Source of the DNA: an uncultured virus (IMG/VR IMGVR_UViG_3300044675_006580)
Lineage: Duplodnaviria > Heunggongvirae > Uroviricota > Caudoviricetes
DNA: 20,000 nt
Direction: 5' to 3' (one strand)
Virus record (IMG/VR): IMGVR_UViG_3300044675_006580
This document shows positions 572 through 16,965 of this stretch, one piece after another. The position numbers and the translations under genes were made by a program. The stretch's first letter is position 1; each line of letters begins with the position of its first letter. Below the pieces are notes generated by a model, which worked only from the letters and a program-made list of their open reading frames with translations, had not been told where the DNA came from and did no database searches.

Positions 572-573
572 AG

Positions 574-647
574 TGGGCTCTGTGGGACTTGAACCCACGA
601 CCAACGGATTATGAGTCCGGCGCTCTAACCAACTGAGCTAAGAGCCC
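574..647 (-). tRNA. tRNA with CAU anticodon, most like tRNA-Ile2 (Met not excluded)
   Basis: Minus strand GGGCTCTTAGCTCAGTTGGTTAGAGCGCCGGACTCATAATCCGTTGGTCGTGGGTTCAAGTCCCACAGAGCCCA folds as a cloverleaf with anticodon loop CTCATAA. No encoded CCA. Confidence 0.93.
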
Positions 648-3791: not shown

Positions 3792-3794
3792 GAG

Positions 3795-3877
3795 TACCCG
3801 AAACCGGACTTGAACCGGTAAGATCTTGCGATCCGGGGGGTTTAAGCCCCCTGCGTCTGCCATTCCGCCACTCGGGT
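3795..3877 (-). tRNA. tRNA-Leu(UAA)
   Basis: Minus strand ACCCGAGTGGCGGAATGGCAGACGCAGGGGGCTTAAACCCCCCGGATCGCAAGATCTTACCGGTTCAAGTCCGGTTTCGGGTA; long variable arm, anticodon TAA. Confidence 0.95.
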
Positions 3878-4723: not shown

Positions 4724-6316
4724 TTACTTTTTCTTACATTTAGAAAGTTTAAGATTACACTTGGTAGAAAACTGAACAGTTTTAGTAGACTTAATAATAG
4801 GCTTATTCTTGGGATAAATGTTTATTCTAGTGCTATAAGCTGTTTTAGTACCATAAATGGTGAGACCATAAAATTGACAATAGTCAATTGCTGAAGCAGG
4901 AACTAAAAGCTTATAGGAGTGAAAAGAATATACATCTTGTTTTGGAATAGTATAAGTATTTAAGTTATTACAGAACAATTCATAATGAGTTATAAATTGT
5001 TTATTTTGATAAGGGTCACGATATTTAACCCAAACAAAGTTCTTGTATAAACCATTTAAATCAAGAAGAATAGGTTTTGGAATACGAGGTAAAGTTAAAG
5101 GAGGAGGAACAACAGTAGTAGTAGTAGTAGTAGTAGATGTAGTGACTGGGATAGGAAGAGTAGTTGTAGTAGAGGTGGTAGATGTAGTAGTAACTACAGG
5201 CAAAGTGGTGGTAGTAGTAGCAGGTAAGGTGGTTGTGGTAGTTGTTGAAACAACTGGAAGAGTGGTGGTAGTGCTAGGAATTGTAGTAGTAGACACTGGA
5301 GTATCTGTAAACATTGATGTAAAATCTAGTCTAGGTACAGATAGATTTGTATAAGCATCTTTAGAAGTTTTGGAGGCAGATTTAAAGTCTGAAACAACTT
5401 TATCTACTGATTGAATGCCGAATTTAGAACGATAGACTGCAAATGCTCCAGCTACATGAGGAGTAGCCATAGAGGTACCTGAAGCAGATTGATATGCAGT
5501 CCCACTAGAAGAAGATGTAATTCTAAATCCAGGAGCAGATAAAGTAGTATATTTATTTACATTTGAAAAATCTGTGATTGAAGATGTATTAGTATAAACA
5601 GCAGCAACAGAAACAGAATGAGATATACAAGCAGGAGCACTCATGCCATAAGCATAGTTATTTCCTGAGGCTATAACTGTAGCTATATTAAGATCTTTAA
5701 GAGACTTAATAGCAGAAGTCATTTCAGGTATATAAGCATCACAAGATGTTGTAAAATTAGTAGCTCCACCAAGAGACATATTAATTGAAGTTATATTGTA
5801 CTGTGAGGAAATTGAGTTAAGCCAATTTAAAGCTTTAATAATATCATTATCGTATGCAGCTCCAGATGAGTCAAAAACATTGATAGCAATAATTTTTGCT
5901 TGAGGAGCTACTCCATGAAAGCCAGAATTGCTACCAGCTACAATGCCTGCAACATGGGTACCATGCCAGTGAACTGGCTTAGCTGCACCAGCTCCAATCA
6001 TAGAAGTAGTTCCATTGGGGCATTTAGCAGCAAAGCAAGCTTCTAGGGCTACACGTCCTTCAAGAAAAGGATGAGAAGAATTGACACCAGTATCAATTAC
6101 GGCGACATAAGAGTCTTGACCTTTATAGTTAAGATCATAAGGGATGTTAGCTCCAATAAACGGAATAGATTCAGTTAAACTAAAAGTAAACTTAACTGGA
6201 CCTTTTGCGCGTGCAACGTCATATGTCGTAGCAGTTGCGTCGTTTATTCTGTATGAACAGATGGAAAAGAGTAATGTGGCACTCAAAAAGAGTGATTTAA
6301 ATTTAAAAATATTCAT
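4724..6316 (-). CDS. Secreted subtilisin-like serine protease (S8) with a Thr-rich linker
   Basis: Triad motifs VAVIDTG, HGTHVAG and SGTSMATPHVAG; oxyanion region ASGN; signal-peptide-like MNIFKFKSLFLSATLLFSIC. Start at 6316 is TAATG-coupled to the helicase stop. Confidence 0.93.
   Translation of the reverse strand: MNIFKFKSLFLSATLLFSICSYRINDATATTYDVARAKGPVKFTFSLTESIPFIGANIPYDLNYKGQDSYVAVIDTGVNSSHPFLEGRVALEACFAAKCPNGTTSMIGAGAAKPVHWHGTHVAGIVAGSNSGFHGVAPQAKIIAINVFDSSGAAYDNDIIKALNWLNSISSQYNITSINMSLGGATNFTTSCDAYIPEMTSAIKSLKDLNIATVIASGNNYAYGMSAPACISHSVSVAAVYTNTSSITDFSNVNKYTTLSAPGFRITSSSSGTAYQSASGTSMATPHVAGAFAVYRSKFGIQSVDKVVSDFKSASKTSKDAYTNLSVPRLDFTSMFTDTPVSTTTIPSTTTTLPVVSTTTTTTLPATTTTTLPVVTTTSTTSTTTTLPIPVTTSTTTTTTTVVPPPLTLPRIPKPILLDLNGLYKNFVWVKYRDPYQNKQFITHYELFCNNLNTYTIPKQDVYSFHSYKLLVPASAIDYCQFYGLTIYGTKTAYSTRINIYPKNKPIIKSTKTVQFSTKCNLKLSKCKKK
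5100..5300 (-). repeat. Low-complexity coding repeat (TTTTTLP-type Thr/Pro linker)
   Basis: GTA/GTG trinucleotide runs on the + strand encoding repeated TTTT(T)LP. Confidence 0.85.
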
Positions 6317-7986
6317 TAATATCTTTTCTTGTAGTCTATTTTGTTTTGAAGCCATTTAGGCTTAGGGTTATTCTCGTAATAACGAGAGATGATTTGACTT
6401 GCCATACCCTTAGTCATGTCTGACGTAATGGGTATTCCAATTCTTTTTAAAAGTTTTTGTTGAGAATCTGTGGGAGAATCAACTCTCCAAGCAGCGGATG
6501 AATCAAGTAGTGCAACAGATGCTGCACGATTGTTTTGAATCCATTTGTCTGAACGAGCAAATGCTTCTCTAATGTCTGAGACAGTACCTAGAAGGGTAGT
6601 TGTTTTAGCATGGTTGTCATGTATAGTTACATTCCAACGACCAAGAGTATCGCATTTAATGCGCATGTACTCTGTATTGTTTAAGCCAAGATGGTAATCG
6701 TCTTCGCCAATTTCAGCCCAAACAAGTTTGGAATACTCTTGCACAATAGGGTTAGGGGGAGGAGGCATAAACAAGTTAATGCGAGTATAAGCTATTTCGA
6801 TGTCATCAGGATTGAGAACACGAACAGCTTCACCTGGACAGTAAGCTTCAAGTTCTTCAAACTTTTCAGCGACGTCTGTTAGACTCTGTCCTTGTAAATC
6901 GAATTCTGGTGGAAGACCCAACAGAGTAGGAAGGCCAATAGGCTTCTTTCCTATCGTGGTGTCTGCAATATCTATAATTATACAATGCTTTTTACTTTCA
7001 TGTAGGCGAGTTCCTCGTCCAACTATTTGAGTATAAAGTAAAGTTGATCGGGTAGGTTTTGCTAGAATAATGGTTTGAAGAGATGGCTCATCAAAGCCTT
7101 CAGTCAAAACGCCAACATTTACAATAACGGAAATCTGGCCAGTTGCAAACTGAGCAAGGATGCTTTCTCGTTCTTCTCGTGGAGTTGTTCCCACGATTAC
7201 GGCGGTTGTTACCGACGCTTGTTTAAAGGATAAGGCCAAGTTTTCGGCGTGTCTGACGCCGGATGCGAATACAATGGCTTTCGTATCCATTGCCAAATTG
7301 CGATAAGTGGCAACGACAAAAGCGTTACGCTCAGGAGTATCCACTTTTTGTTCAAGCTGATCTTGGGCATATTCACCATTCCTTATTTCTACATCAGAGA
7401 TGTCTACGTTTGTTTTAACTCTATAGCCGACGAGAGGACAAAGCCATCCGTCTTTAATTAGATCTTGTATGGATTTATAGTATACTATTTCTTCAAATAC
7501 GTCAATTAACCTAGTTGAATCTGACCTCTGTGGCGTTGCAGTAACGCCCAAGAGGAAATCAGGAGAGAAATAATCAATAATTCTTCTATAAGTAGGAGCA
7601 GCAGCATGATGGGCCTCATCTATAACTATAGTTTTAAAGTAATCTTTAGGATAAGCTTCAATACGAGGAGTATTGTTTCTACCTAAAGTAGCAACACTGG
7701 CAACGACTACGTCGACATGGCCAGCTTTGCGTTCTGCTTGTTCAATTTCTACAACAAGATTAGGATTAGAAGCCATAATCTTATTGCGAGCTTGTTCAAG
7801 TAATTCAGCTCTATGAGCTAAGACTAACATTGGCAAAGAATCTTTGCGCAATATGGGGAGGTGTGAAAATAAAATAGTTTTACCTGCACCCGTGGGTAAA
7901 ACAACAAGTTGCCTATTAATGCCATTAGCTTCATTAGCTATAATAGCATCGAGTGCTTCTTGTTGATATGGGCGAAGGGAGATCAT
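6316..7986 (-). CDS. SF2 DEAD/DEAH-box helicase (ResIII/Irc3-like)
   Basis: LRPYQ, Walker A PTGAGKT, DEAHH, TATP, LTEGFDEP and QIVGRGTR motifs. Confidence 0.95.
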   Translation of the reverse strand: MISLRPYQQEALDAIIANEANGINRQLVVLPTGAGKTILFSHLPILRKDSLPMLVLAHRAELLEQARNKIMASNPNLVVEIEQAERKAGHVDVVVASVATLGRNNTPRIEAYPKDYFKTIVIDEAHHAAAPTYRRIIDYFSPDFLLGVTATPQRSDSTRLIDVFEEIVYYKSIQDLIKDGWLCPLVGYRVKTNVDISDVEIRNGEYAQDQLEQKVDTPERNAFVVATYRNLAMDTKAIVFASGVRHAENLALSFKQASVTTAVIVGTTPREERESILAQFATGQISVIVNVGVLTEGFDEPSLQTIILAKPTRSTLLYTQIVGRGTRLHESKKHCIIIDIADTTIGKKPIGLPTLLGLPPEFDLQGQSLTDVAEKFEELEAYCPGEAVRVLNPDDIEIAYTRINLFMPPPPNPIVQEYSKLVWAEIGEDDYHLGLNNTEYMRIKCDTLGRWNVTIHDNHAKTTTLLGTVSDIREAFARSDKWIQNNRAASVALLDSSAAWRVDSPTDSQQKLLKRIGIPITSDMTKGMASQIISRYYENNPKPKWLQNKIDYKKRY

Positions 7987-8945: not shown

Positions 8946-11486
8946 TTAAAACATTGCGTTAGCTCTACGCTTAGGTGGTTCTGTATTGACATTGGTAAAT
9001 ACAATTGGTGAAGATTGAGAATGAAACTTCTGATACTCAAGAGCATCGAAGAAAGAGTGCATTACAGAATCTTGATCAGGAAATGACCAAGATGTAACTG
9101 TATGTTCTTTCATTTTTATCTTACCATCTGTATAGTTCATTACAACTCGGTTACCGATACCATAGTGCTGAAGTGCGCGTTCTAAGTGTGGATACACTAT
9201 GCGATTCATTACAATTTGATCAGTAACCTTACCATTGCTGGTAGGAATATTAATAGAAGCAGAATACAATGACAATATAAAGTCATGTTGATCCTGCGGA
9301 CGTTCGAATGATTCTACGTGTTCTGATATTGCAGTATACAAGTATTCCCATTCGGTACGTTTAATTCCAGTTGATGCTTGAACGGTGTCGGCAGCATTTG
9401 CATTGAAAATGTCCATACGGAATTGACGCAAAAGTGGAAGTGCATGAAAGTACAGGCGCTGTCCAAGCTTATGAACAATATCCGAAGGACGGACATTCTC
9501 TTGTGCATGCTTGCTAATACGGTGGGTATAAGCACGATAATACTCAGTACAAAGTGTATTGAGTTGAGTGATTTTACCTTCGTATGTTTCTACCTCAGGA
9601 TGCTTTGCAGCAAGTGAGCGAAAACGACTATGCCAAAAGTCACGGTCTATAGGTTTACCAGTAGCAAGTACTTCTTCAACCATAACGCTTGCCTCTGTAT
9701 CAATTGCAATACGATCGTTAGGATCTGATGTTTGAGTACAACCATCAATTGCAGATTCTAGAGAACAAAGCTGTACAGTACGGTGTTGTCCAACAACCAT
9801 AGAGTGCAGCATTGTAGCGTTAACATATCGACCGACATTGCCACCGTTCATAGCGGTGTCAATATCAGACATGACATCTTCAACAGAGTATACACTCGTT
9901 GATGGTCTAGGTTTAACTGGAGAGTTTTCACTGGGCAAGCCAGAGTAACTAACGTTTTCATTACGAATAGCAGTAGACAAACGAACGGGCCAGTTTCGAC
10001 CGTTTACAACGGGGAACGAAACTTCTTCGCCGTTTGCCTTTTCCCATGTGGGATACCATTCATCTTCAACGTAGCTAAAGATTGAATACTCGCCATAACC
10101 GTTTGGTGAACGAACGACAATGACGACTTTCTCGCCATCGTGTGGACCAGATTCCATAGTACGATAAAATAGTTTAAAGAAGTCATCTTCGTCATGACCG
10201 CCATGGCTCTCATACATTTCGAGCCAGTCAAAGTCACTGACTATATGAACACCAATGTTGTTAATACGACGAATGGTGCCTTCTTCTACTTGTATATCAT
10301 AACCAGCCATACGTGCAAGTGATTCGGGAATCACCTGCTCATAGACTGAACATGGAATAGGAATACGCTTTTGAAGTGGTTTGGCGTGAGAAACAGCAAG
10401 TGTTTCAAATAGCCAGGGAGAATCCGTTACGGATAATCCCATACTAACCCAGCGATAACCAACATAGGATATACGAGAATGTGCTTCCACATCCTCGATG
10501 TCTTGATTTTCACGTGAAAAGTTACGCATGAATACAGACTTCCAGTTAGTTAAAAGCTTTCCATCAATTGCTTGTTGGAACATCTTTTCATATTCTTCCT
10601 TAAGCCACATTTCCATGTCGGATTTACGGAACAACTTTGGAAAGTTGATAACAGTTTGATCATCTGTGATAACACGGCTCTTAGGACCTTGTGGTTCTGC
10701 GAGCAGGCGATAACCTCCATCATAAGTGATTTCGGTTTTTAGGTTTTCACGGGATGAAATAACATCAATGCCTTCAGGTAAATTATCAGAGACAATAAAA
10801 TTGCCCTTGATCATACCTTCAGGAGTAATGATACGACCATTAAATACTTTAGAATTTCCAAGGAAATTGATAAGTTGTGCTTTAATAGTTGGATCATAAT
10901 AATACTCATTAGTATCCAATGTGTTATGAGGTTCATACACGGGAAGATTCTCAATGCCAGCATGGATTAGGCGAGATGAAACAACAAAGCCACCGTCTAG
11001 TAGACGGGGAATTGCTTCAACTACCCAATCAGCCCAGCCTGAGTTAAAATCATAACGAGTGTACTCGGTAGATTCAACCCATTTGATATTCAATGTGTCG
11101 AAGTGAGCGTTGATAAGAGTTGCACGGTGAAATGATTTCAACCGCTTAGCTGTCTTACCGCCACCTTTAACATTAAAACCCATGGTATTAAGTGTTGACA
11201 TCCATCCTTCTTGTTCATCGATGATGCAAGCTACAATTTTGTTCTTGTCTACAAGAGCATATTGTACAGATGGATGAGAGATTAGACGTTCAACTTCTGC
11301 ACGTTCAAATGCATTAGTTGGAATTGGCAATGCTGCAATGCGATATTCTGGTGAACCAGAAAACTCAAGTGCATGACGCATGACGCCAATATCGTAGAAT
11401 CCGAATTGGTAATTGTTATTAGAACGCAATGGGCCATTAGCCATTGCTTTCAAGCGAACGTTTGGTTTGTTTTGATTGTTAGTCAT
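8946..11486 (-). CDS. Large protein, putative single-subunit two-barrel RNA polymerase (YonO/RdRP-like)
   Basis: LLDGGFVVS (D~164), GR...IKGNFIV (K~227), GGHDEDD (~429-435), VVRSP (R~459), NVGRYVN (~552), ESAIDG (D~581). Strong AAAGGAGA RBS. Confidence 0.65.
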   Translation of the reverse strand: MTNNQNKPNVRLKAMANGPLRSNNNYQFGFYDIGVMRHALEFSGSPEYRIAALPIPTNAFERAEVERLISHPSVQYALVDKNKIVACIIDEQEGWMSTLNTMGFNVKGGGKTAKRLKSFHRATLINAHFDTLNIKWVESTEYTRYDFNSGWADWVVEAIPRLLDGGFVVSSRLIHAGIENLPVYEPHNTLDTNEYYYDPTIKAQLINFLGNSKVFNGRIITPEGMIKGNFIVSDNLPEGIDVISSRENLKTEITYDGGYRLLAEPQGPKSRVITDDQTVINFPKLFRKSDMEMWLKEEYEKMFQQAIDGKLLTNWKSVFMRNFSRENQDIEDVEAHSRISYVGYRWVSMGLSVTDSPWLFETLAVSHAKPLQKRIPIPCSVYEQVIPESLARMAGYDIQVEEGTIRRINNIGVHIVSDFDWLEMYESHGGHDEDDFFKLFYRTMESGPHDGEKVVIVVRSPNGYGEYSIFSYVEDEWYPTWEKANGEEVSFPVVNGRNWPVRLSTAIRNENVSYSGLPSENSPVKPRPSTSVYSVEDVMSDIDTAMNGGNVGRYVNATMLHSMVVGQHRTVQLCSLESAIDGCTQTSDPNDRIAIDTEASVMVEEVLATGKPIDRDFWHSRFRSLAAKHPEVETYEGKITQLNTLCTEYYRAYTHRISKHAQENVRPSDIVHKLGQRLYFHALPLLRQFRMDIFNANAADTVQASTGIKRTEWEYLYTAISEHVESFERPQDQHDFILSLYSASINIPTSNGKVTDQIVMNRIVYPHLERALQHYGIGNRVVMNYTDGKIKMKEHTVTSWSFPDQDSVMHSFFDALEYQKFHSQSSPIVFTNVNTEPPKRRANAMF

Positions 11487-11567: not shown

Positions 11568-12159
11568 TGTTTCATTTTTAAGCTATGATACTATCTGGAT
11601 AGATGATTCATTCTTGATTGATGATATTAATTTGCATTGTTGATTCATTCATGAAATCTGTTATAAGTCGGTTATTTTGATTCATTTGACTCTTTTGATA
11701 CTGGTTCAGCATGATGATTCATTCGTTTTTGTTGCTACATATTTCGCTGGTATGATTCATTTTAATAATATGTTACTAATCCAACCTAATGATTCATTTG
11801 GTTTTTTTGATACAAATCGACGCCTCTGATTCATTCATTTCTACTGTTACTAATTAAAGATAGTGATTCATTTTCTTCCTATGGTATTAGTTAGGCGCTT
11901 TGATTCATTTGCGAACAATGTTACAATTCGTTTTGATTGATTCATTTTGTTTAATTGATACTAGTTGCAAAGCTTGATTCATTCGCTTAAGATGGTGTTA
12001 CTTATCGTTTCTGATTCATTTGCTGATTCTGTTACTTGTCCGATTTTTTGATTCATTCACGATTTCTGTGTTAAGTTTGCTCTATTGATTCATTCCATTG
12101 AATTGTTACTAGTCGAGGCTGTTGATTCATTCATTAAGTCTGTTACATTGTTGGATGGT
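11568..12159 (-). ncRNA. Dual-repeat interspaced array, TIGR-like (16 units of about 37 nt)
   Basis: + strand TGATTCATT at 11604, 11641, 11678, 11715, 11753, 11790, 11827, 11864, 11901, 11938, 11975, 12012, 12049, 12086 and 12123, with a degenerate copy at 11568. A second repeat (consensus TGWTACWART) starts exactly 18 nt after each copy, and each unit has two unique ~9-nt spacers. Strand inferred from the flanking genes. Confidence 0.88.
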
Positions 12160-12421
12160 TAGAATTCTCAAAAGAAAATCCAAGTGATTTAAGTTTATTA
12201 TTTCTTCGGATGACAGCTCTTGCACGAATTGATAGACCGCCCCATACACCATGGTTAATGTTATTTTCAATAGCATATAAAGCACATGGTGTTTTTACGG
12301 GGCAGTCTTGACAAAATGCAATAGCCTTATTTGTTCCTGATACATGATCAGAGAAGAAGAAATTAGTATCTTTAATTGATTTACATTTAGCAAATTCAAT
12401 AAATGATTCTGATATAGGCAT
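12143..12421 (-). CDS. whiB: WhiB-family Fe-S transcription regulator
   Basis: Four Cys (C...C-x2-C-x5-C), FF motif and GVWGG turn. Confidence 0.93.
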   Translation of the reverse strand: MPISESFIEFAKCKSIKDTNFFFSDHVSGTNKAIAFCQDCPVKTPCALYAIENNINHGVWGGLSIRARAVIRRNNKLKSLGFSFENSNHPTM

Positions 12422-12435
12422 TAGTATTCCTTATT

Positions 12436-12792
12436 TTAATAGCGAGTAAAGTTCATAGATACAGAGCCAAAGAAAGCAATAGCAGCAGATGCTACTATGT
12501 AATGATCTACTTTAAGTTGAAAGCCGTTAAAGAAAATAGTTAAAGTATTCTTATTATTCTGATAGTCATAAATAGGGACGAGTGTAAGTGGCTGTAACTC
12601 ATCAGTATGAGTTTCGGAAACCTTAAGTTTAAGATTAAGATCTTGAATAGGATCAGGTAGTACATGATCGAGTTCAAGCAGAAACGGATTAGCATTACAA
12701 AGATCAGTTAAAAATGTTTTTACATATTCATTTAAACTTTCATTCCAATGCTCAGGTGCATCTTGTAATTGTGGTTGGGTTGTGTTATTCAT
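12436..12792 (-). CDS. Hypothetical protein
   Basis: 118-aa ORF with TAAGGAATAACA before the ATG. Confidence 0.7.
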   Translation of the reverse strand: MNNTTQPQLQDAPEHWNESLNEYVKTFLTDLCNANPFLLELDHVLPDPIQDLNLKLKVSETHTDELQPLTLVPIYDYQNNKNTLTIFFNGFQLKVDHYIVASAAIAFFGSVSMNFTRY

Positions 12793-12794
12793 TG

Positions 12795-13382
12795 TTATTC
12801 CTTATTAGTTAATAGGTTGGTTTGGTTTAAAAAGCTTTGAAATTTAGAACGACCCTTGTTAGAGACTCGCCATAAATTGAAAGCCCAACGGTCTGGGTCT
12901 ACATCTTCTGTCCAATGTAAATTCTTACAATTGAATTCGAAGACTTCGCCACCAGTCATCTGAATTTTGGTAACTTCAGGTGGATTGATTTGTTGGTCTT
13001 CAGGGACCCAATTGTACATTGGGTAAGCCCTAGAGTAGCACCAGGTAACGTTGCCTAGATTGATTCCGACGGATCGGAAATCAGCATAAGATGCATCTCG
13101 ATGTGGTTTAATGGTTCCGCCCTTGGAAACAAGTCCAAGGTCTGGTTCCCAATTAAAGGTAGAACATAGTCCTGTTATGTAGTCCCAAATCCTATCATCT
13201 TGGAAACCAAGCTTGTAGTCTTGTACTTCGCTCAAAGGAGCTTCGTATGGGAACCATGAACGACGTCGAGATGGAGCATAGTTAGAAACGTCTGTGCCAA
13301 GGTTAGGTTCAATATTCTCTTCAAGATATTGAACAATGTTGGCTACGTTTTCAGGGCTAAGAGTTTTAATTATATTAAGCAT
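12795..13382 (-). CDS. 2OG-Fe(II) dioxygenase-like protein (AlkB-like fold)
   Basis: HxD (PHRDAS), distal His (NLHW) and C-terminal R-x-x-x-N-x-x-R (DRWAFNLWR). Confidence 0.7.
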   Translation of the reverse strand: MLNIIKTLSPENVANIVQYLEENIEPNLGTDVSNYAPSRRRSWFPYEAPLSEVQDYKLGFQDDRIWDYITGLCSTFNWEPDLGLVSKGGTIKPHRDASYADFRSVGINLGNVTWCYSRAYPMYNWVPEDQQINPPEVTKIQMTGGEVFEFNCKNLHWTEDVDPDRWAFNLWRVSNKGRSKFQSFLNQTNLLTNKE

Positions 13383-13400
13383 TGTTATTCCTTAATGATT

Positions 13401-13428
13401 GCTTATGGTGGGGGCTTGCGCCCCCCAC
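13401..13428 (-). repeat. Duplicated GC-rich GCAA-tetraloop hairpin, copy 1
   Basis: + strand GCTTATGGTGGGGGCTTGCGCCCCCCAC; near-identical to 14137-14163. Confidence 0.8.
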
Positions 13429-13432
13429 ATTT

Positions 13433-14050
13433 TTATTGTTTTGGACGATGACCAGTAGCTGTTGGGTTCTGGAGAACAAACGCAATCCAATAATATTCTA
13501 GAATTGCAGCAACAGCATAGAAATGATCTGGGTCAGATGAATTTCTAGGATCAACGGCCATGTAATCTAAGATTTCAGACCAAGATAAATCTGTTTTGCC
13601 GTAGTCTTCTAAAAGTGATTGAAACATTCCAAAATCATCTTCAGAAATATGAATATTGTCAGAACCAATAACTTCATTAATACGAGAAACCTGCTGTTTA
13701 ACCATATGGCCAACAACATGAACTGTATTTTTGTGCAATTGGATGCTGTCTACAGGTTCTGAAATATCATAACCTTTAGCATTAGCCAGCTTCTCACATT
13801 TTAAACATGGACATGGATTAAATCCATAGCCAATTTCTGTGTGCTCTGAATGACAATAGCATGCATAGACAGGTCTAGTAGTATTGAACATGGAAACAAT
13901 GTCAGCTGCTAAGCCATCATTAACACCGCCTTGAACAAGCGATGAGTAAATGCCGACTTCGGCTTCAATATCCCATTCAGGATTTGAAACAACTTTGTAA
14001 GACTCTGTTTCAGGATCCCATACAACTTTTTTGTCATTAGGTTGATTCAT
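13433..14050 (-). CDS. Hypothetical protein with a Cys/His cluster
   Basis: 205-aa ORF with CYCH...CPCLKC and an AAAGGAG RBS. Confidence 0.75.
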   Translation of the reverse strand: MNQPNDKKVVWDPETESYKVVSNPEWDIEAEVGIYSSLVQGGVNDGLAADIVSMFNTTRPVYACYCHSEHTEIGYGFNPCPCLKCEKLANAKGYDISEPVDSIQLHKNTVHVVGHMVKQQVSRINEVIGSDNIHISEDDFGMFQSLLEDYGKTDLSWSEILDYMAVDPRNSSDPDHFYAVAAILEYYWIAFVLQNPTATGHRPKQ

Positions 14051-14136
14051 TATAAGTAACTCCTTTCAAAAGTTAAACTGTTTGTTACAAGTCTCTCCAG
14101 AACAGGAGATAATTCATTGATACACTCGTAAGGTTA

Positions 14137-14163
14137 GCTTATGGTGGGGGCTTGCGCCCCCAC
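14137..14163 (-). repeat. Duplicated GC-rich GCAA-tetraloop hairpin, copy 2
   Basis: + strand GCTTATGGTGGGGGCTTGCGCCCCCAC directly after the stop of the Tas-like gene. Confidence 0.8.
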
Positions 14164-14167
14164 ACGA

Positions 14168-15022
14168 TTAAGCAAATGGATCTCCTGGGATAGCAATCTC
14201 GTGAACATGATCGCCATGGGCAATAATATATGGACGAGGTGCTGGTTCACCATAGTGAGCCTGAAATGCTACTGCGTGATAGTGAGACAAGAAAATTTTG
14301 ACTGCAAATCTACGAGCTTGTGCATCGATCTGTGCGTCTGATAATATACCAGTCTCAAGGGTAGCACGTGTCTGATTAGCTTTAAAGTTTTTAGTGTCAA
14401 GAATCTCTTTAGCAAAGTCGGCATAATCGCCGGCTTCGTTCTTAGAAACTCTACGATCTTTATCTTGTTTGTATAGATGGCCGTAGAAGCATTCATCTCG
14501 TTTATGAAACTTCATGAAACTTTGGCCAATCTTCCAAGAAAGAGTCTTTAACTCTGCGTTGAAAGGACGCTTCTGACCCTTTTCCCATTTCTGGGTAGGA
14601 TCAAGACCTGCATATCGCCAAACGCTACCTGCAGTAGGAGCTTTTGTTATGTCAATATGTGCACACAATCCAGCTGCAAGAACGGGACCAATGCCATACT
14701 GGCTAAGAGCCCATTGACCTGCAACTGTTGACTGAGCAAAGGCTTCAAGTGGGAACTTAAGTGACTTTTCCATAAGCTGAAGATTATAGGACAGAAACTC
14801 TACAAGTTCTGATGGTGAATCTTGAGTCTTAAGCTCTCGAGCTTGTGCAGAAAATGCCATGCGATTTTCTTGAATTGTGTAGTACGCATCGACTAGCTTA
14901 CGAGTGGAGTTTTGATCCATCTCTGCAGCAAGTGAACGTACATCTCGGTTAAACCGAGTATACAATGGAAAGTCAAAGGTGTCGGGAGTAATGATATTGG
15001 TTTGTAGTTGTGGTTGATTCAT
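14168..15022 (-). CDS. IS110/IS116 C-terminal (Nop-like) RNA-binding protein without a nuclease domain; TasA-like
   Basis: Predicted coiled coil (LVDAYYTIQENR...), then GIGPVLAAGL.AHID and SVWRYAGLDP as in Transposase_20/Nop-like domains, and ARRFAVKIFL. No N-terminal DEDD RuvC, no HNH and no catalytic SG after the AGL.P motif. Confidence 0.8.
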   Translation of the reverse strand: MNQPQLQTNIITPDTFDFPLYTRFNRDVRSLAAEMDQNSTRKLVDAYYTIQENRMAFSAQARELKTQDSPSELVEFLSYNLQLMEKSLKFPLEAFAQSTVAGQWALSQYGIGPVLAAGLCAHIDITKAPTAGSVWRYAGLDPTQKWEKGQKRPFNAELKTLSWKIGQSFMKFHKRDECFYGHLYKQDKDRRVSKNEAGDYADFAKEILDTKNFKANQTRATLETGILSDAQIDAQARRFAVKIFLSHYHAVAFQAHYGEPAPRPYIIAHGDHVHEIAIPGDPFA

Positions 15023-16089: not shown

Positions 16090-16965
16090 CTATACTTTTG
16101 CTTTAATATTCCAGTTTAATAATCTTCCACTAGAAAAGTGTAAGATCCAACTGGCAAATAAAGCGTTAACTGATGGAGTCATTAAGTCGTCAGGACCATA
16201 ACCAAATTGTTCTCTTAATGTTTTAAACCATGAAGAGTTGATTTGGAGTAGACCTGAGTCATATGACCCATTAGAGTTTAGTGTCCATACAAGTTGGCCA
16301 TTTTCCCATTTAGCATTGACGGCTCCAGGATTACATCTGGATTCACGCCAAGCAATATAGGAAAAGACTTTGTGTGGAAGAGCATACTTCTTAAAGGTTT
16401 GTTCATATTGAGGACAATAGAACTGATTACCTACAGGAAGTTTAACTCTTAGTATAGTATCTTTTTTAGCTTTTAGATAGGTGTTGTTTTTGATGCAACC
16501 CCATCCATTGAATCCTACTGCTGGACGATAGAAAGGCTTATTAGCTAGTTTATCATCTAGAGTTAGGAATTCTTTTGTTTGGTAACCGAGTACAGCTATT
16601 CTGTTAGCTACAACAATTTGTTCTAGCACAGTTGCTTTGGAAGGATGAGAAGCAAATTCTTTGCCTCCATAACCTTCCCAGGTAGATCTGGCTATGCCAA
16701 GTCCACCTCCCCAGTTACCACCATCTTGCCAGTCTTGGGCAGTCTCACATTGTGCTACTTTAGTCCAATACTTTATGGAAGGTCCCATTTTGAATGTGAC
16801 TGTTTTCCATTTAGTAGGAATAGTAGGTAAGGTGGTACTTCGGGGCTCGGCTGATTGTTCCGAGACACCTCCAAGATCTGTATCAGATGCTTGTACTGTT
16901 GTTGCTGGAATTACGCCAGCTATTACCACAATAAGTGACAATATTATATTTCGTATTTTGCGCAT
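16090..16965 (-). CDS. Secreted two-domain lytic transglycosylase: Rpf-like domain plus SLT/lysozyme-like domain
   Basis: Signal peptide; WTKVAQCET...GGLGI..STW..YGG...A...EQI.VA (Rpf core); IAWRESRCNP.A...DSGLLQIN (SLT). GAAAGGAG RBS. Confidence 0.85.
   Translation of the reverse strand: MRKIRNIILSLIVVIAGVIPATTVQASDTDLGGVSEQSAEPRSTTLPTIPTKWKTVTFKMGPSIKYWTKVAQCETAQDWQDGGNWGGGLGIARSTWEGYGGKEFASHPSKATVLEQIVVANRIAVLGYQTKEFLTLDDKLANKPFYRPAVGFNGWGCIKNNTYLKAKKDTILRVKLPVGNQFYCPQYEQTFKKYALPHKVFSYIAWRESRCNPGAVNAKWENGQLVWTLNSNGSYDSGLLQINSSWFKTLREQFGYGPDDLMTPSVNALFASWILHFSSGRLLNWNIKAKV

What the first reader, a model, noticed from the sequence alone, without database searches (positions are those of the whole stretch)
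14168..15022. Nuclease-less IS110/Nop-like (TasA-like) effector separated from its array by four genes
Seen: the 284-aa protein has IS110 C-terminal motifs (GIGP..AA.L, W.YAGL.P) but no RuvC, HNH or catalytic serine loop, so it is unlikely to be an active transposase. It lies about 2 kb upstream of the array on the minus strand, with a Cys-rich protein, a 2OG-Fe(II) oxygenase, an unknown protein and WhiB in between. Known: TasA proteins are Nop-domain-only RNA-guided DNA binders. Inference: this is a programmable non-cutting DNA binder, for example repressing host or rival-phage genes. The intervening genes could be accessory effectors.
Basis: partly seen in the sequence, partly recalled or inferred. 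Interest (0 to 1): 0.85.

Follow-up and report, generated by a model that had tools for sequence, protein, structure and literature searches.

The report
Phage TasA guide matching tRNA-Arg genes
This is a recently described kind of phage RNA-guided, non-cutting DNA-binding system (TIGR-TasA) whose four intervening genes are interchangeable cargo, but one long-kept guide matches bacterial arginine-tRNA genes, offering a rare testable candidate for what these systems naturally aim at.

Summary
The 284-aa protein is a real TasA. Its only solved sequence relatives are TasH and TasR, and its fold matches them (Z 18-19) better than IS110 (13). It has no nuclease domain but keeps the guide-processing Tyr/His pair. 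A 99%-identical copy is already in the Tas table of Faure 2025. The array 2 kb downstream has 15 dual-repeat units with 8+8-nt spacers, mostly 37 nt long instead of the published 36. The accessory-effector idea fails: 21 of 44 related loci have no gene between tas and array.

New here: only 2 of 15 guides are shared with a 96%-identical phage, and guide variants behave like protein-coding DNA. The last guide rebuilds the D-arm of tRNA-Arg genes. A guide from another phage, not used in the search, matches the same actinobacterial tRNA-Arg(ACG) 16/16 in a shifted register. Related guides occur in 12 of 44 arrays. The host genome could not be searched, so host versus rival-phage tRNA, and the purpose, remain open. 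The scan found TIGR-TasA and weaker tRNA-like guides before on other DNA.

The parts
14168..15022 (-). tasA: 284-aa nuclease-less Nop-domain protein (coiled coil about 33-99, Nop core, C-terminal processing loop)
14207..14230 (-). Codons Tyr265 to His272, equivalent to the SpTasH guide-processing pair Tyr289/His296
   Evidence: 62 of 63 homologues each
11568..12150 (-). Dual-repeat TIGR array: a partial first unit, then 15 full units (13 x 37, 1 x 38, 1 x 36 nt); 8-nt spacer A, 11-nt loop repeat, 8-nt spacer B, 10-nt edge repeat
11568..11603 (-). Last unit (spacer A 11603-11596, spacer B 11585-11578); its rebuilt 16-bp target equals tRNA-Arg positions 8-23
12123..12150 (-). Partial first unit; its loop repeat contains the WhiB stop codon
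   Evidence: read from the sequence
14129..14161 (-). GC-rich hairpin element right after the tasA stop; also after tas in 5 of 7 relatives examined
13393..13425 (-). Second copy (91%) of the hairpin element; the two copies flank the 205-aa gene
13433..14050 (-). 205-aa protein of no known family with a Cys/His cluster; variable cargo (near tas in 3 of 22 loci)
12795..13382 (-). 195-aa probable 2OG-Fe(II) oxygenase; variable position (near tas in 10 of 22 loci)
12436..12792 (-). 118-aa protein of no known family (near tas in 2 of 22 loci)
12143..12421 (-). WhiB-like regulator (near tas in 6 of 22 loci); points to an actinobacterial host
8946..11486 (-). 846-aa predicted single-chain two-barrel RNA polymerase, starting 81 nt after the array; near tas in 21 of 22 loci

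Best explanation
A self-contained dual-repeat TIGR-TasA system of a roughly 200-kb myovirus, probably infecting Actinobacteria. Shown by sequence and models: Tas fold, no nuclease, processing and unwinding residues kept, 15-unit array, variable genes in between. Inferred from SpTasH and TaTasR: (1) the array transcript is cut in the edge repeats by the Tyr265/His272 pair into 37-nt guides, so tas and array need not be adjacent; (2) a TasA dimer binds one guide and opens a contiguous 16-bp site, one spacer on each strand; (3) it blocks that DNA without cutting. Most guides are quickly exchanged modules aimed at protein-coding DNA outside the phage's own genome (host or rival elements; not identified). 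One long-kept guide is aimed at the D-arm of a tRNA-Arg gene (about 0.7). My split for that guide: host tRNA-Arg(ACG) as the flank of an integration hot spot, where binding would hinder integration or excision of resident prophages or satellites (0.3); repression of host tRNA transcription (0.2); a tRNA-Arg gene of a rival phage (0.2); neutral by-product or chance (0.3). The four intervening genes are cargo of a variable region.
For: Protein. W163/K171 in 63 of 63 and Y265/H272 in 62 of 63 homologues, matching SpTasH W203/K211 and Y289/H296. Homodimer model 0.68, best control 0.00; the mark was reached by 20 of 30 known pairs and 1 of 23 single chains; runs agree in at least 97% of contacts, pLDDT at least 85; like complexes are solved, so the pass may be from memory. 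Array: same repeat plan and 8-nt spacers as SpTIGR parsed here (6 of 7 single units 36 nt), loop one base longer. A branch of 62 rows (SH-aLRT 98, quick tree) holds 41 of 42 rows labelled with this array and no 35/36-nt array. Seven relatives without a detectable array have lost the Tyr/His pair. Geometry: differences between guide variants on opposite halves are in step modulo 3 in 11 of 16 cases at gap 0, against 2 and 3 of 16 at gaps 1 and 2 (p 0.004); 50 of 73 variant pairs can be read as synonymous, control 40.7 +/- 3.2. tRNA: 47 of 89 IMG/VR hits of the last guide's target lie at position 8/9 of a tRNA, 43 of them Arg. The L058 guide, not used in that search, matches positions 16-31 of two of these tRNA-Arg(ACG) genes exactly (chance 0.004 against all tRNA words held) and the Nonomuraea gene 16/16. 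Related guides in 12 of 44 arrays, four registers, several tree branches, last or next-to-last in 7. No self target in G002 or G004. Phage attachment cores cover tRNA positions 26-72.
Against: No binding, processing or repression was measured. No host genome was searched; the host is inferred from WhiB, and a 1.6-kb fragment with a 96%-identical tas piece sits in a Bacteroidetes bin. The tRNA likeness was first noticed by eye among about 500 guides. The site is common to all Arg isoacceptors and to many phage tRNAs (24 of 28 distinct tRNAs with the site are Arg; most lie in phage tRNA clusters). Only two registers match perfectly; L092 and the L010 group need a 1-nt gap plus a mismatch, and L086 has 3 mismatches. 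The window guide is 15/16 to Nonomuraea and 14/16 to Nocardia. 141 of 214 Arg codons in the window's genes need the ACG tRNA, which argues against silencing it. Codon signal is modest: within-half congruence 10 of 31 (chance level), phase-linking z 1.9, other geometries 43-46 of 73. Four other guide targets gave only scattered hits. One re-paired control each gave an exact hit, probably by re-forming a real pair.
Confidence: 0.7

Rival explanations
1. The tRNA guides aim at tRNA-Arg genes of rival or kin phages, not the host; the resident phage's own tRNA-Arg(TCT) has drifted away from its guide.
For: G002's own tRNA-Arg(TCT) aligns in the same register with 3 mismatches. The G002 and G004 alleles differ at the same D-loop base as the two guide variants. 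Most exact sites lie in phage tRNA clusters.
Against: The L058 guide matched exactly only ACG-type tRNAs in the set held. None of the 15 distinct tRNA-Arg starts in kin loci carries either exact site. The loci with the site showed no tblastx similarity to G002/G004 at E 1e-10.
Confidence: 0.2
2. The tRNA match is real but functionless: guides are captured from abundant host DNA and persist at the array end because terminal units are rarely lost.
For: The window's last unit has a short loop and a degenerate final edge. Terminal position in most carriers.
Against: Several registers and both orientations converge on one 24-bp stretch; only one other tRNA-like near match (tRNA-Leu, 1 mismatch, control level) among about 500 guides. 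One tRNA guide is shared at an internal position by four otherwise divergent arrays.
Confidence: 0.2
3. The four intervening genes are accessory effectors of TasA.
For: All lie on one strand between gene and array; the oxygenase-like gene is near tas in 10 of 22 loci.
Against: None between tas and array in 21 of 44 loci; each of the four is there in at most 4 of 44; swapped in a 96%-identical phage; unrelated core genes are more tightly linked (20-21 of 22).
Confidence: 0.05
4. TasA steers or gates the phage's own RNA polymerase programme (self-regulation), the array being the leader of the polymerase gene.
For: The polymerase gene starts 81 nt after the array with no terminator-like site between and lies near tas in 21 of 22 loci. 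tas genes without array or Tyr/His pair persist in this neighbourhood.
Against: No guide has an exact site in G002 or G004; near matches are at control level. The polymerase is upstream of tas in many loci. Other core genes are equally linked.
Confidence: 0.07
5. A decayed IS110 transposase with an unrelated repeat nearby.
For: PHROG 4285 is labelled 'transposase'; weak Transposase_20 hit.
Against: Sequence and fold are closer to Tas than to IS110; 1,830 homologues of similar length; co-occurrence with one array type; listed as Tas by Faure.
Confidence: 0.02

Closest known systems
Dual-repeat TIGR-TasA (FpTIGR; Faure et al. 2025, PMC12045711)
   Same: Nop-only protein with a dual-repeat, dual-spacer array in a phage; a 99%-identical protein is in their ProteinInfo table (row 5041).
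   Different: Units mostly 37 nt with 8+8-nt spacers (FpTIGR 36 nt, 18 nt of spacer); candidate natural target. No '37-nt', '37 nt' or 'tRNA-Arg' in the main text or held supplements as searched (the table was cut when stored and figures are not held).
SpTIGR-TasH of Salicola phage CGphi29 (PDB 21KL, 9W04; PMC13421893; bioRxiv 10.64898/2026.08.11.744272)
   Same: Closest solved relative (E 8e-12; Z 18-19); 8-nt spacers; repeats start purine-A and end CA; Tyr/His and Trp/Lys pairs at equal spacing.
   Different: No HNH domain; 11-nt instead of 10-nt loop repeat; different repeat sequences.
Stem-loop TasA repressors MbTasA, BlTasA, PlTasA (Xu et al. 2026, bioRxiv 10.64898/2026.09.09.750476)
   Same: Nuclease-less Tas proteins; binding and repression shown for MbTasA.
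   Different: Stem-loop guides, no Tyr/His loop. The paper calls dual-repeat guides a fixed 36 nt and natural targets undetermined.
IS110 bridge recombinases (IS621, ISCro4)
   Same: Shared RNA-binding fold (Z 12.7-13.0) and GIGP / WxYAGL motifs.
   Different: No DEDD domain here; guide array instead of a bridge RNA.
TldR phage-borne RNA-guided repressors (Wiegand et al., bioRxiv 10.1101/2023.11.30.569447; abstract and outline read)
   Same: A phage using a nuclease-dead RNA-guided protein on a host gene.
   Different: TnpB-derived, unrelated fold; targets promoters.

Membership tests
TIGR-TasA (dual repeat) | Nop domain with coiled coil, closer to Tas than to IS110 or Nop5 | tested here: met
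   (Z 17.8-19.4 Tas; 12.7-13.0 IS110 family; 7.1 Nop5)
TIGR-TasA (dual repeat) | No N-terminal HNH or RuvC domain | tested here: met
   about 32 residues precede the coiled coil
TIGR-TasA (dual repeat) | Array of alternating 8-12-nt edge and loop repeats with two short spacers near the gene | tested here: met
   edge 10 nt, loop 11 nt, spacers 8 nt
TIGR-TasA (dual repeat) | Box D / box C motifs shared by edge and loop repeats | tested here: met
   both start purine-A and end CA, as SpTIGR; exact box pairing not resolved
TIGR-TasA (dual repeat) | 36-nt unit length | tested here: not met
   13 of 15 units are 37 nt; 724 of 852 parsed units in the clade, redundant loci included. Faure's 8-12-nt repeat range allows it and SpTIGR has one 37-nt unit, so this is treated as a variant, not an exclusion.
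TIGR-TasA (dual repeat) | C-terminal Tyr/His processing pair | tested here: met
   Y265/H272 in 62 of 63
TIGR-TasA (dual repeat) | Homodimer through the coiled coil | tested here: inconclusive
   model passes (0.68, best control 0.00; 20 of 30 pairs and 1 of 23 single chains pass) but may be from memory of solved Tas dimers
TIGR-TasA (dual repeat) | Array processed into guides that load on the protein and direct DNA binding | not testable with these tools
   only assembled contigs of RNA runs were available
TIGR-TasA (dual repeat) | Target = spacer A next to the reverse complement of spacer B | tested here: met
   indirect: modulo-3 test and two exact tRNA registers favour gap 0
IS110 transposase | N-terminal DEDD/RuvC domain | tested here: not met
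Stem-loop TIGR | Palindromic stems instead of edge repeats; no Tyr/His loop | tested here: not met
   conserved edge repeats and Tyr/His pair present
TasA with dedicated partner gene (tasParB type) | Conserved operon partner | tested here: not met

The most novel reading that the evidence does not exclude
A clade of large actinophages has repeatedly and independently acquired TIGR guides against the host tRNA-Arg(ACG) gene and uses a non-cutting TasA to occupy the flank of this integration hot spot, stopping resident prophages or satellites from excising or integrating (or shutting the tRNA gene), while the other guides are swapped as whole 37-nt modules between phages to track fast-changing protein-coding targets. 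This would be a natural host target for TIGR-Tas and a new mode of conflict between mobile elements.
Probability: 0.3. Interest if true: 0.85.

Novelty: new variant of a known kind. Interest (0 to 1): 0.58.

Why it matters
The papers read name two open questions: what TIGR guides target in nature and how arrays gain them. This clade gives a concrete candidate (tRNA-Arg D-arm, two exact registers), sequence evidence for a gap-free 16-bp target drawn largely from coding DNA, and very fast exchange of whole units. It also shows a 37-nt dual-repeat architecture that a detector tuned to 4-bp repeat gaps might miss.

Tried and rejected
Self or kin targeting: no excess in 124 tas loci plus G002; 0 exact and 5 and 2 one-mismatch sites in G002 and G004 against 0-9 and 3-6 in controls; no synonymous excess (4 vs 0-5; 1 vs 1-7).

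One cluster of 8 near-identical contigs fitted a predicted reading but is a single sequence.

A fixed codon frame for targets was dropped: 46 vs 80 +/- 8 stops in one frame, but depletion is spread over most triplets. Pairing of the purine after each spacer was not supported by covariation or by the L058 match. Guides aimed at array DNA: 6 vs 1-2 in controls, none from the window.

Host search: no assembly for the window; the GTDB scan gave 2 uninformative loci; no route to actinobacterial genomes was found, so host targets are untested beyond tRNA-Arg of two named records. The L058 matches are circular (pattern built from the target) and are not counted. That 45 of 49 such tRNAs lie within 3 kb of a contig end partly reflects how proviruses are cut out.

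Expression: three RNA runs held only 6-9% of the sampled words; contigs cover pieces of tasA, the polymerase and the oxygenase gene and short array pieces with other spacers, which cannot show transcription or processing. ESM Atlas, Pfam, PHROGs and PDB sequence searches said nothing useful on the polymerase. Rfam found only 3 tRNAs. The tree is the quick version; the careful search did not finish.

Full report
OBSERVATION. Pfam shows only a sub-threshold Transposase_20 stretch and no DEDD or credible HNH domain. Fifteen copies of a 9-nt anchor lie at 11604-12123 with 37-nt spacing, one 38; simulations give at most 4 copies per window. Four ORFs fill the roughly 2,040 nt between gene and array.

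THE PROTEIN. The only PDB sequences matched at E<=10 are SpTasH (8e-12) and TaTasR (2e-10). An AlphaFold2 model from 63 sequences (pLDDT 85.7) has TasH and TasR chains as its top ten Foldseek hits, with Z 17.8-19.4 against 12.7-13.0 for IS110-family recombinases and 7.1 for Nop5. W163/K171 (63 of 63) and Y265/H272 (62 of 63) have the spacing of SpTasH W203/K211, the unwinding pair, and Y289/H296, the processing pair. A homodimer model scores 0.68 against a best control of 0.00 with a coiled-coil interface; 20 of 30 known pairs and 1 of 23 single chains reach the mark, runs agree in at least 97% of contacts at pLDDT of at least 85, and solved Tas dimers mean the pass may be from memory. The protein of contig Ga0209500_10000009 (L044, 99% identical) is listed in the ProteinInfo sheet of Faure et al., so membership is already on record.

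THE ARRAY. Parsing 60 loci (59 of 123 fetched, plus the window) gave 490 distinct 37-nt units: 8 variable bases, an 11-nt loop repeat, 8 variable bases, a 10-nt edge repeat; 724 of 852 units are 37 nt, redundant loci included. SpTIGR, parsed the same way, has 8-nt spacers, 10-nt repeats with the same first and last letters, and 36-nt units in 6 of 7 single units. In a quick tree, a 62-row branch (SH-aLRT 98) holds 41 of the 42 rows labelled with this array type and none with 35- or 36-nt arrays. Seven members of the branch without a detectable array have lost the Tyr/His pair; two of them have under 3 kb on one side.

CONTEXT. The window is 96% identical over most of its length to G002, a 203-kb record with terminase, portal, capsid, sheath and baseplate genes and two WhiB genes. 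WhiB is used as an actinophage marker (PMC10914622, passages); the host is therefore inferred. The 846-aa gene after the array folds like single-chain two-barrel RNA polymerases (pLDDT 85.1; QDE-1 E 1e-9, TM 0.42).

INTERVENING GENES. In 44 representative loci (L041 left out; L047 and L095 counted apart) the distance is 1-2,057 nt, with no gene between in 21. The window's four genes lie there in 3, 4, 2 and 4 loci; the commonest intervening family (12 of 44) is absent from the window. Among 22 loci with at least 4 kb on both sides they are nearby in 3, 10, 2 and 6, whereas the polymerase, a membrane protein and a transglycosylase are nearby in 21, 21 and 20. G002 replaces the 205-aa gene by two others; in the window it is flanked by two copies of a hairpin element. 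They are cargo.

GUIDE TURNOVER. Window and G002 share 2 of 15 guides; the other 13 differ at 5 or more of 16 positions from every G002 guide, whereas 4% divergence would leave 98% within two differences. Three window guides recur, with identical loop repeats, in L049, whose TasA is 74% identical. I infer exchange of whole units.

TARGET GEOMETRY. Among 73 variant pairs, differences on opposite halves are in step modulo 3 in 11 of 16 cases when spacer A is joined directly to the reverse complement of spacer B (2 and 3 of 16 with gaps of 1 and 2; p 0.004), and 50 of 73 can be read as synonymous (control 40.7 +/- 3.2; other geometries 43-46). Against: within-half congruence is at chance (10 of 31) and a codon-model test gives z 1.9. 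Spacer GC is 46%. No target was found in the phage itself or its kin or by four IMG/VR scans.

THE tRNA-Arg GUIDE. I noticed by eye that the last unit rebuilds a tRNA D-arm. A scan gave 89 loci; in 47 the site lies at position 8 or 9 of a tRNA, 43 of them Arg, 28 distinct tRNAs. Two loci (L361, L368; high-GC, the tRNA at the start of small head-tail gene clusters) were also matched exactly by a guide of L058, at positions 16-31, which had not been used in the search. Chance is 0.004 against all 16,828 tRNA words held and 3e-5 against these two tRNAs; three other geometries and six re-pairings gave no exact match. The tRNA is of actinobacterial type: the Nonomuraea gene matches L058 16/16 and the window 15/16, the Nocardia gene 15/16 and 14/16. 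Related guides occur in 12 of 44 distinct arrays (a 13th hit is a terminator), in four registers, last or next-to-last in seven. Two registers need a 1-nt gap and a mismatch, and one variant is 3 off. G002's own tRNA-Arg(TCT) differs at 3 positions.

WHY THAT SITE. Corynephage attachment cores cover tRNA positions 26-72, and a mycobacterial attB overlaps a tRNA-Arg gene (PMC10654092, passages). The guides sit just outside or across the start of that core. Silencing the tRNA is less attractive because 141 of 214 Arg codons in the window need it. A rival phage's tRNA and a neutral by-product remain open; see the rivals.

LITERATURE. Faure 2025: parts 1-4 of 12, passages, and two supplement searches (table cut when stored, figures not held). 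Xu 2026: parts 1-5 of 7 and passages; its supplements are closed and may list this clade. Guan 2026: parts 1-2 of 5. PMC13421893: passages. Yang 2026 (Mol Cell) was not seen, only cited there. Wiegand: abstract and outline. Searches listed no paper giving a tRNA target or 37-nt units; most subscription journals are not covered.

VERDICT. A known system in a 37-nt variant; the accessory-gene idea is rejected; a testable candidate natural target was found. Interest 0.58.

Noticed in passing
window 8946-11486 (-): Unannotated 846-aa single-chain two-barrel RNA polymerase (QDE-1/RDR2-like fold; invariant D432 and D434, an RSPN motif after them), a core gene of this phage group.
   Followed up: partly
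L070:3643-4413, L072, L073, L074, L079, L080, L094: A second, strongly diverged tas paralogue (about 256 aa, no Tyr/His loop) directly upstream of tasA; a heterodimer or dominant-negative partner is possible.
   Followed up: partly
L021, L022, L029, L031, L097, L100, L101: Short tas genes (246-255 aa) on long branches with no detectable array and without the Tyr/His pair, retained in related phages.
   Followed up: partly
window 12143-12150: The WhiB stop codon lies inside the loop repeat of the truncated first array unit.
   Followed up: no
window 14129-14161 and 13393-13425: GC-rich hairpin with a GCAA loop and no U tract after tas; two copies flank the 205-aa gene here, and L048 also has two copies, suggesting a cassette boundary.
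   Followed up: partly
L056, L072/L109, L094 arrays: Guides whose rebuilt target resembles array DNA, own or of kin (6 against 1-2 in controls).
   Followed up: partly
L016-L018, L059, L066, L067, L070-L074, L078, L080, L087, L089, L094, L109: One guide family recurs in 13 of 44 distinct arrays with codon-like variants; its target was not found in IMG/VR (39 scattered hits).
   Followed up: partly
L454 (G008), L455 (G009): 12-16-kb high-GC head-tail gene clusters beginning at a tRNA-Arg(ACG) gene; no integrase among the 23 ORFs scanned (of 116 listed).
   Followed up: partly
L095:9947-10800: tasA split into two frames beside an intact array (frameshift or assembly error).
   Followed up: no
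L042, L043: A distant Tas (39%) with 37-nt arrays of a different repeat sequence.
   Followed up: no
window 573-647, 1766-1839, 3794-3877 (-): Three tRNA genes (Met, Lys, Leu).
   Followed up: no
window 16090-16965, 6316-7986, 4724-6355 (-): Transglycosylase with Rpf-like and SLT domains; SF2 helicase; S8 protease with a Thr-rich repeat at about 5100-5290.
   Followed up: no
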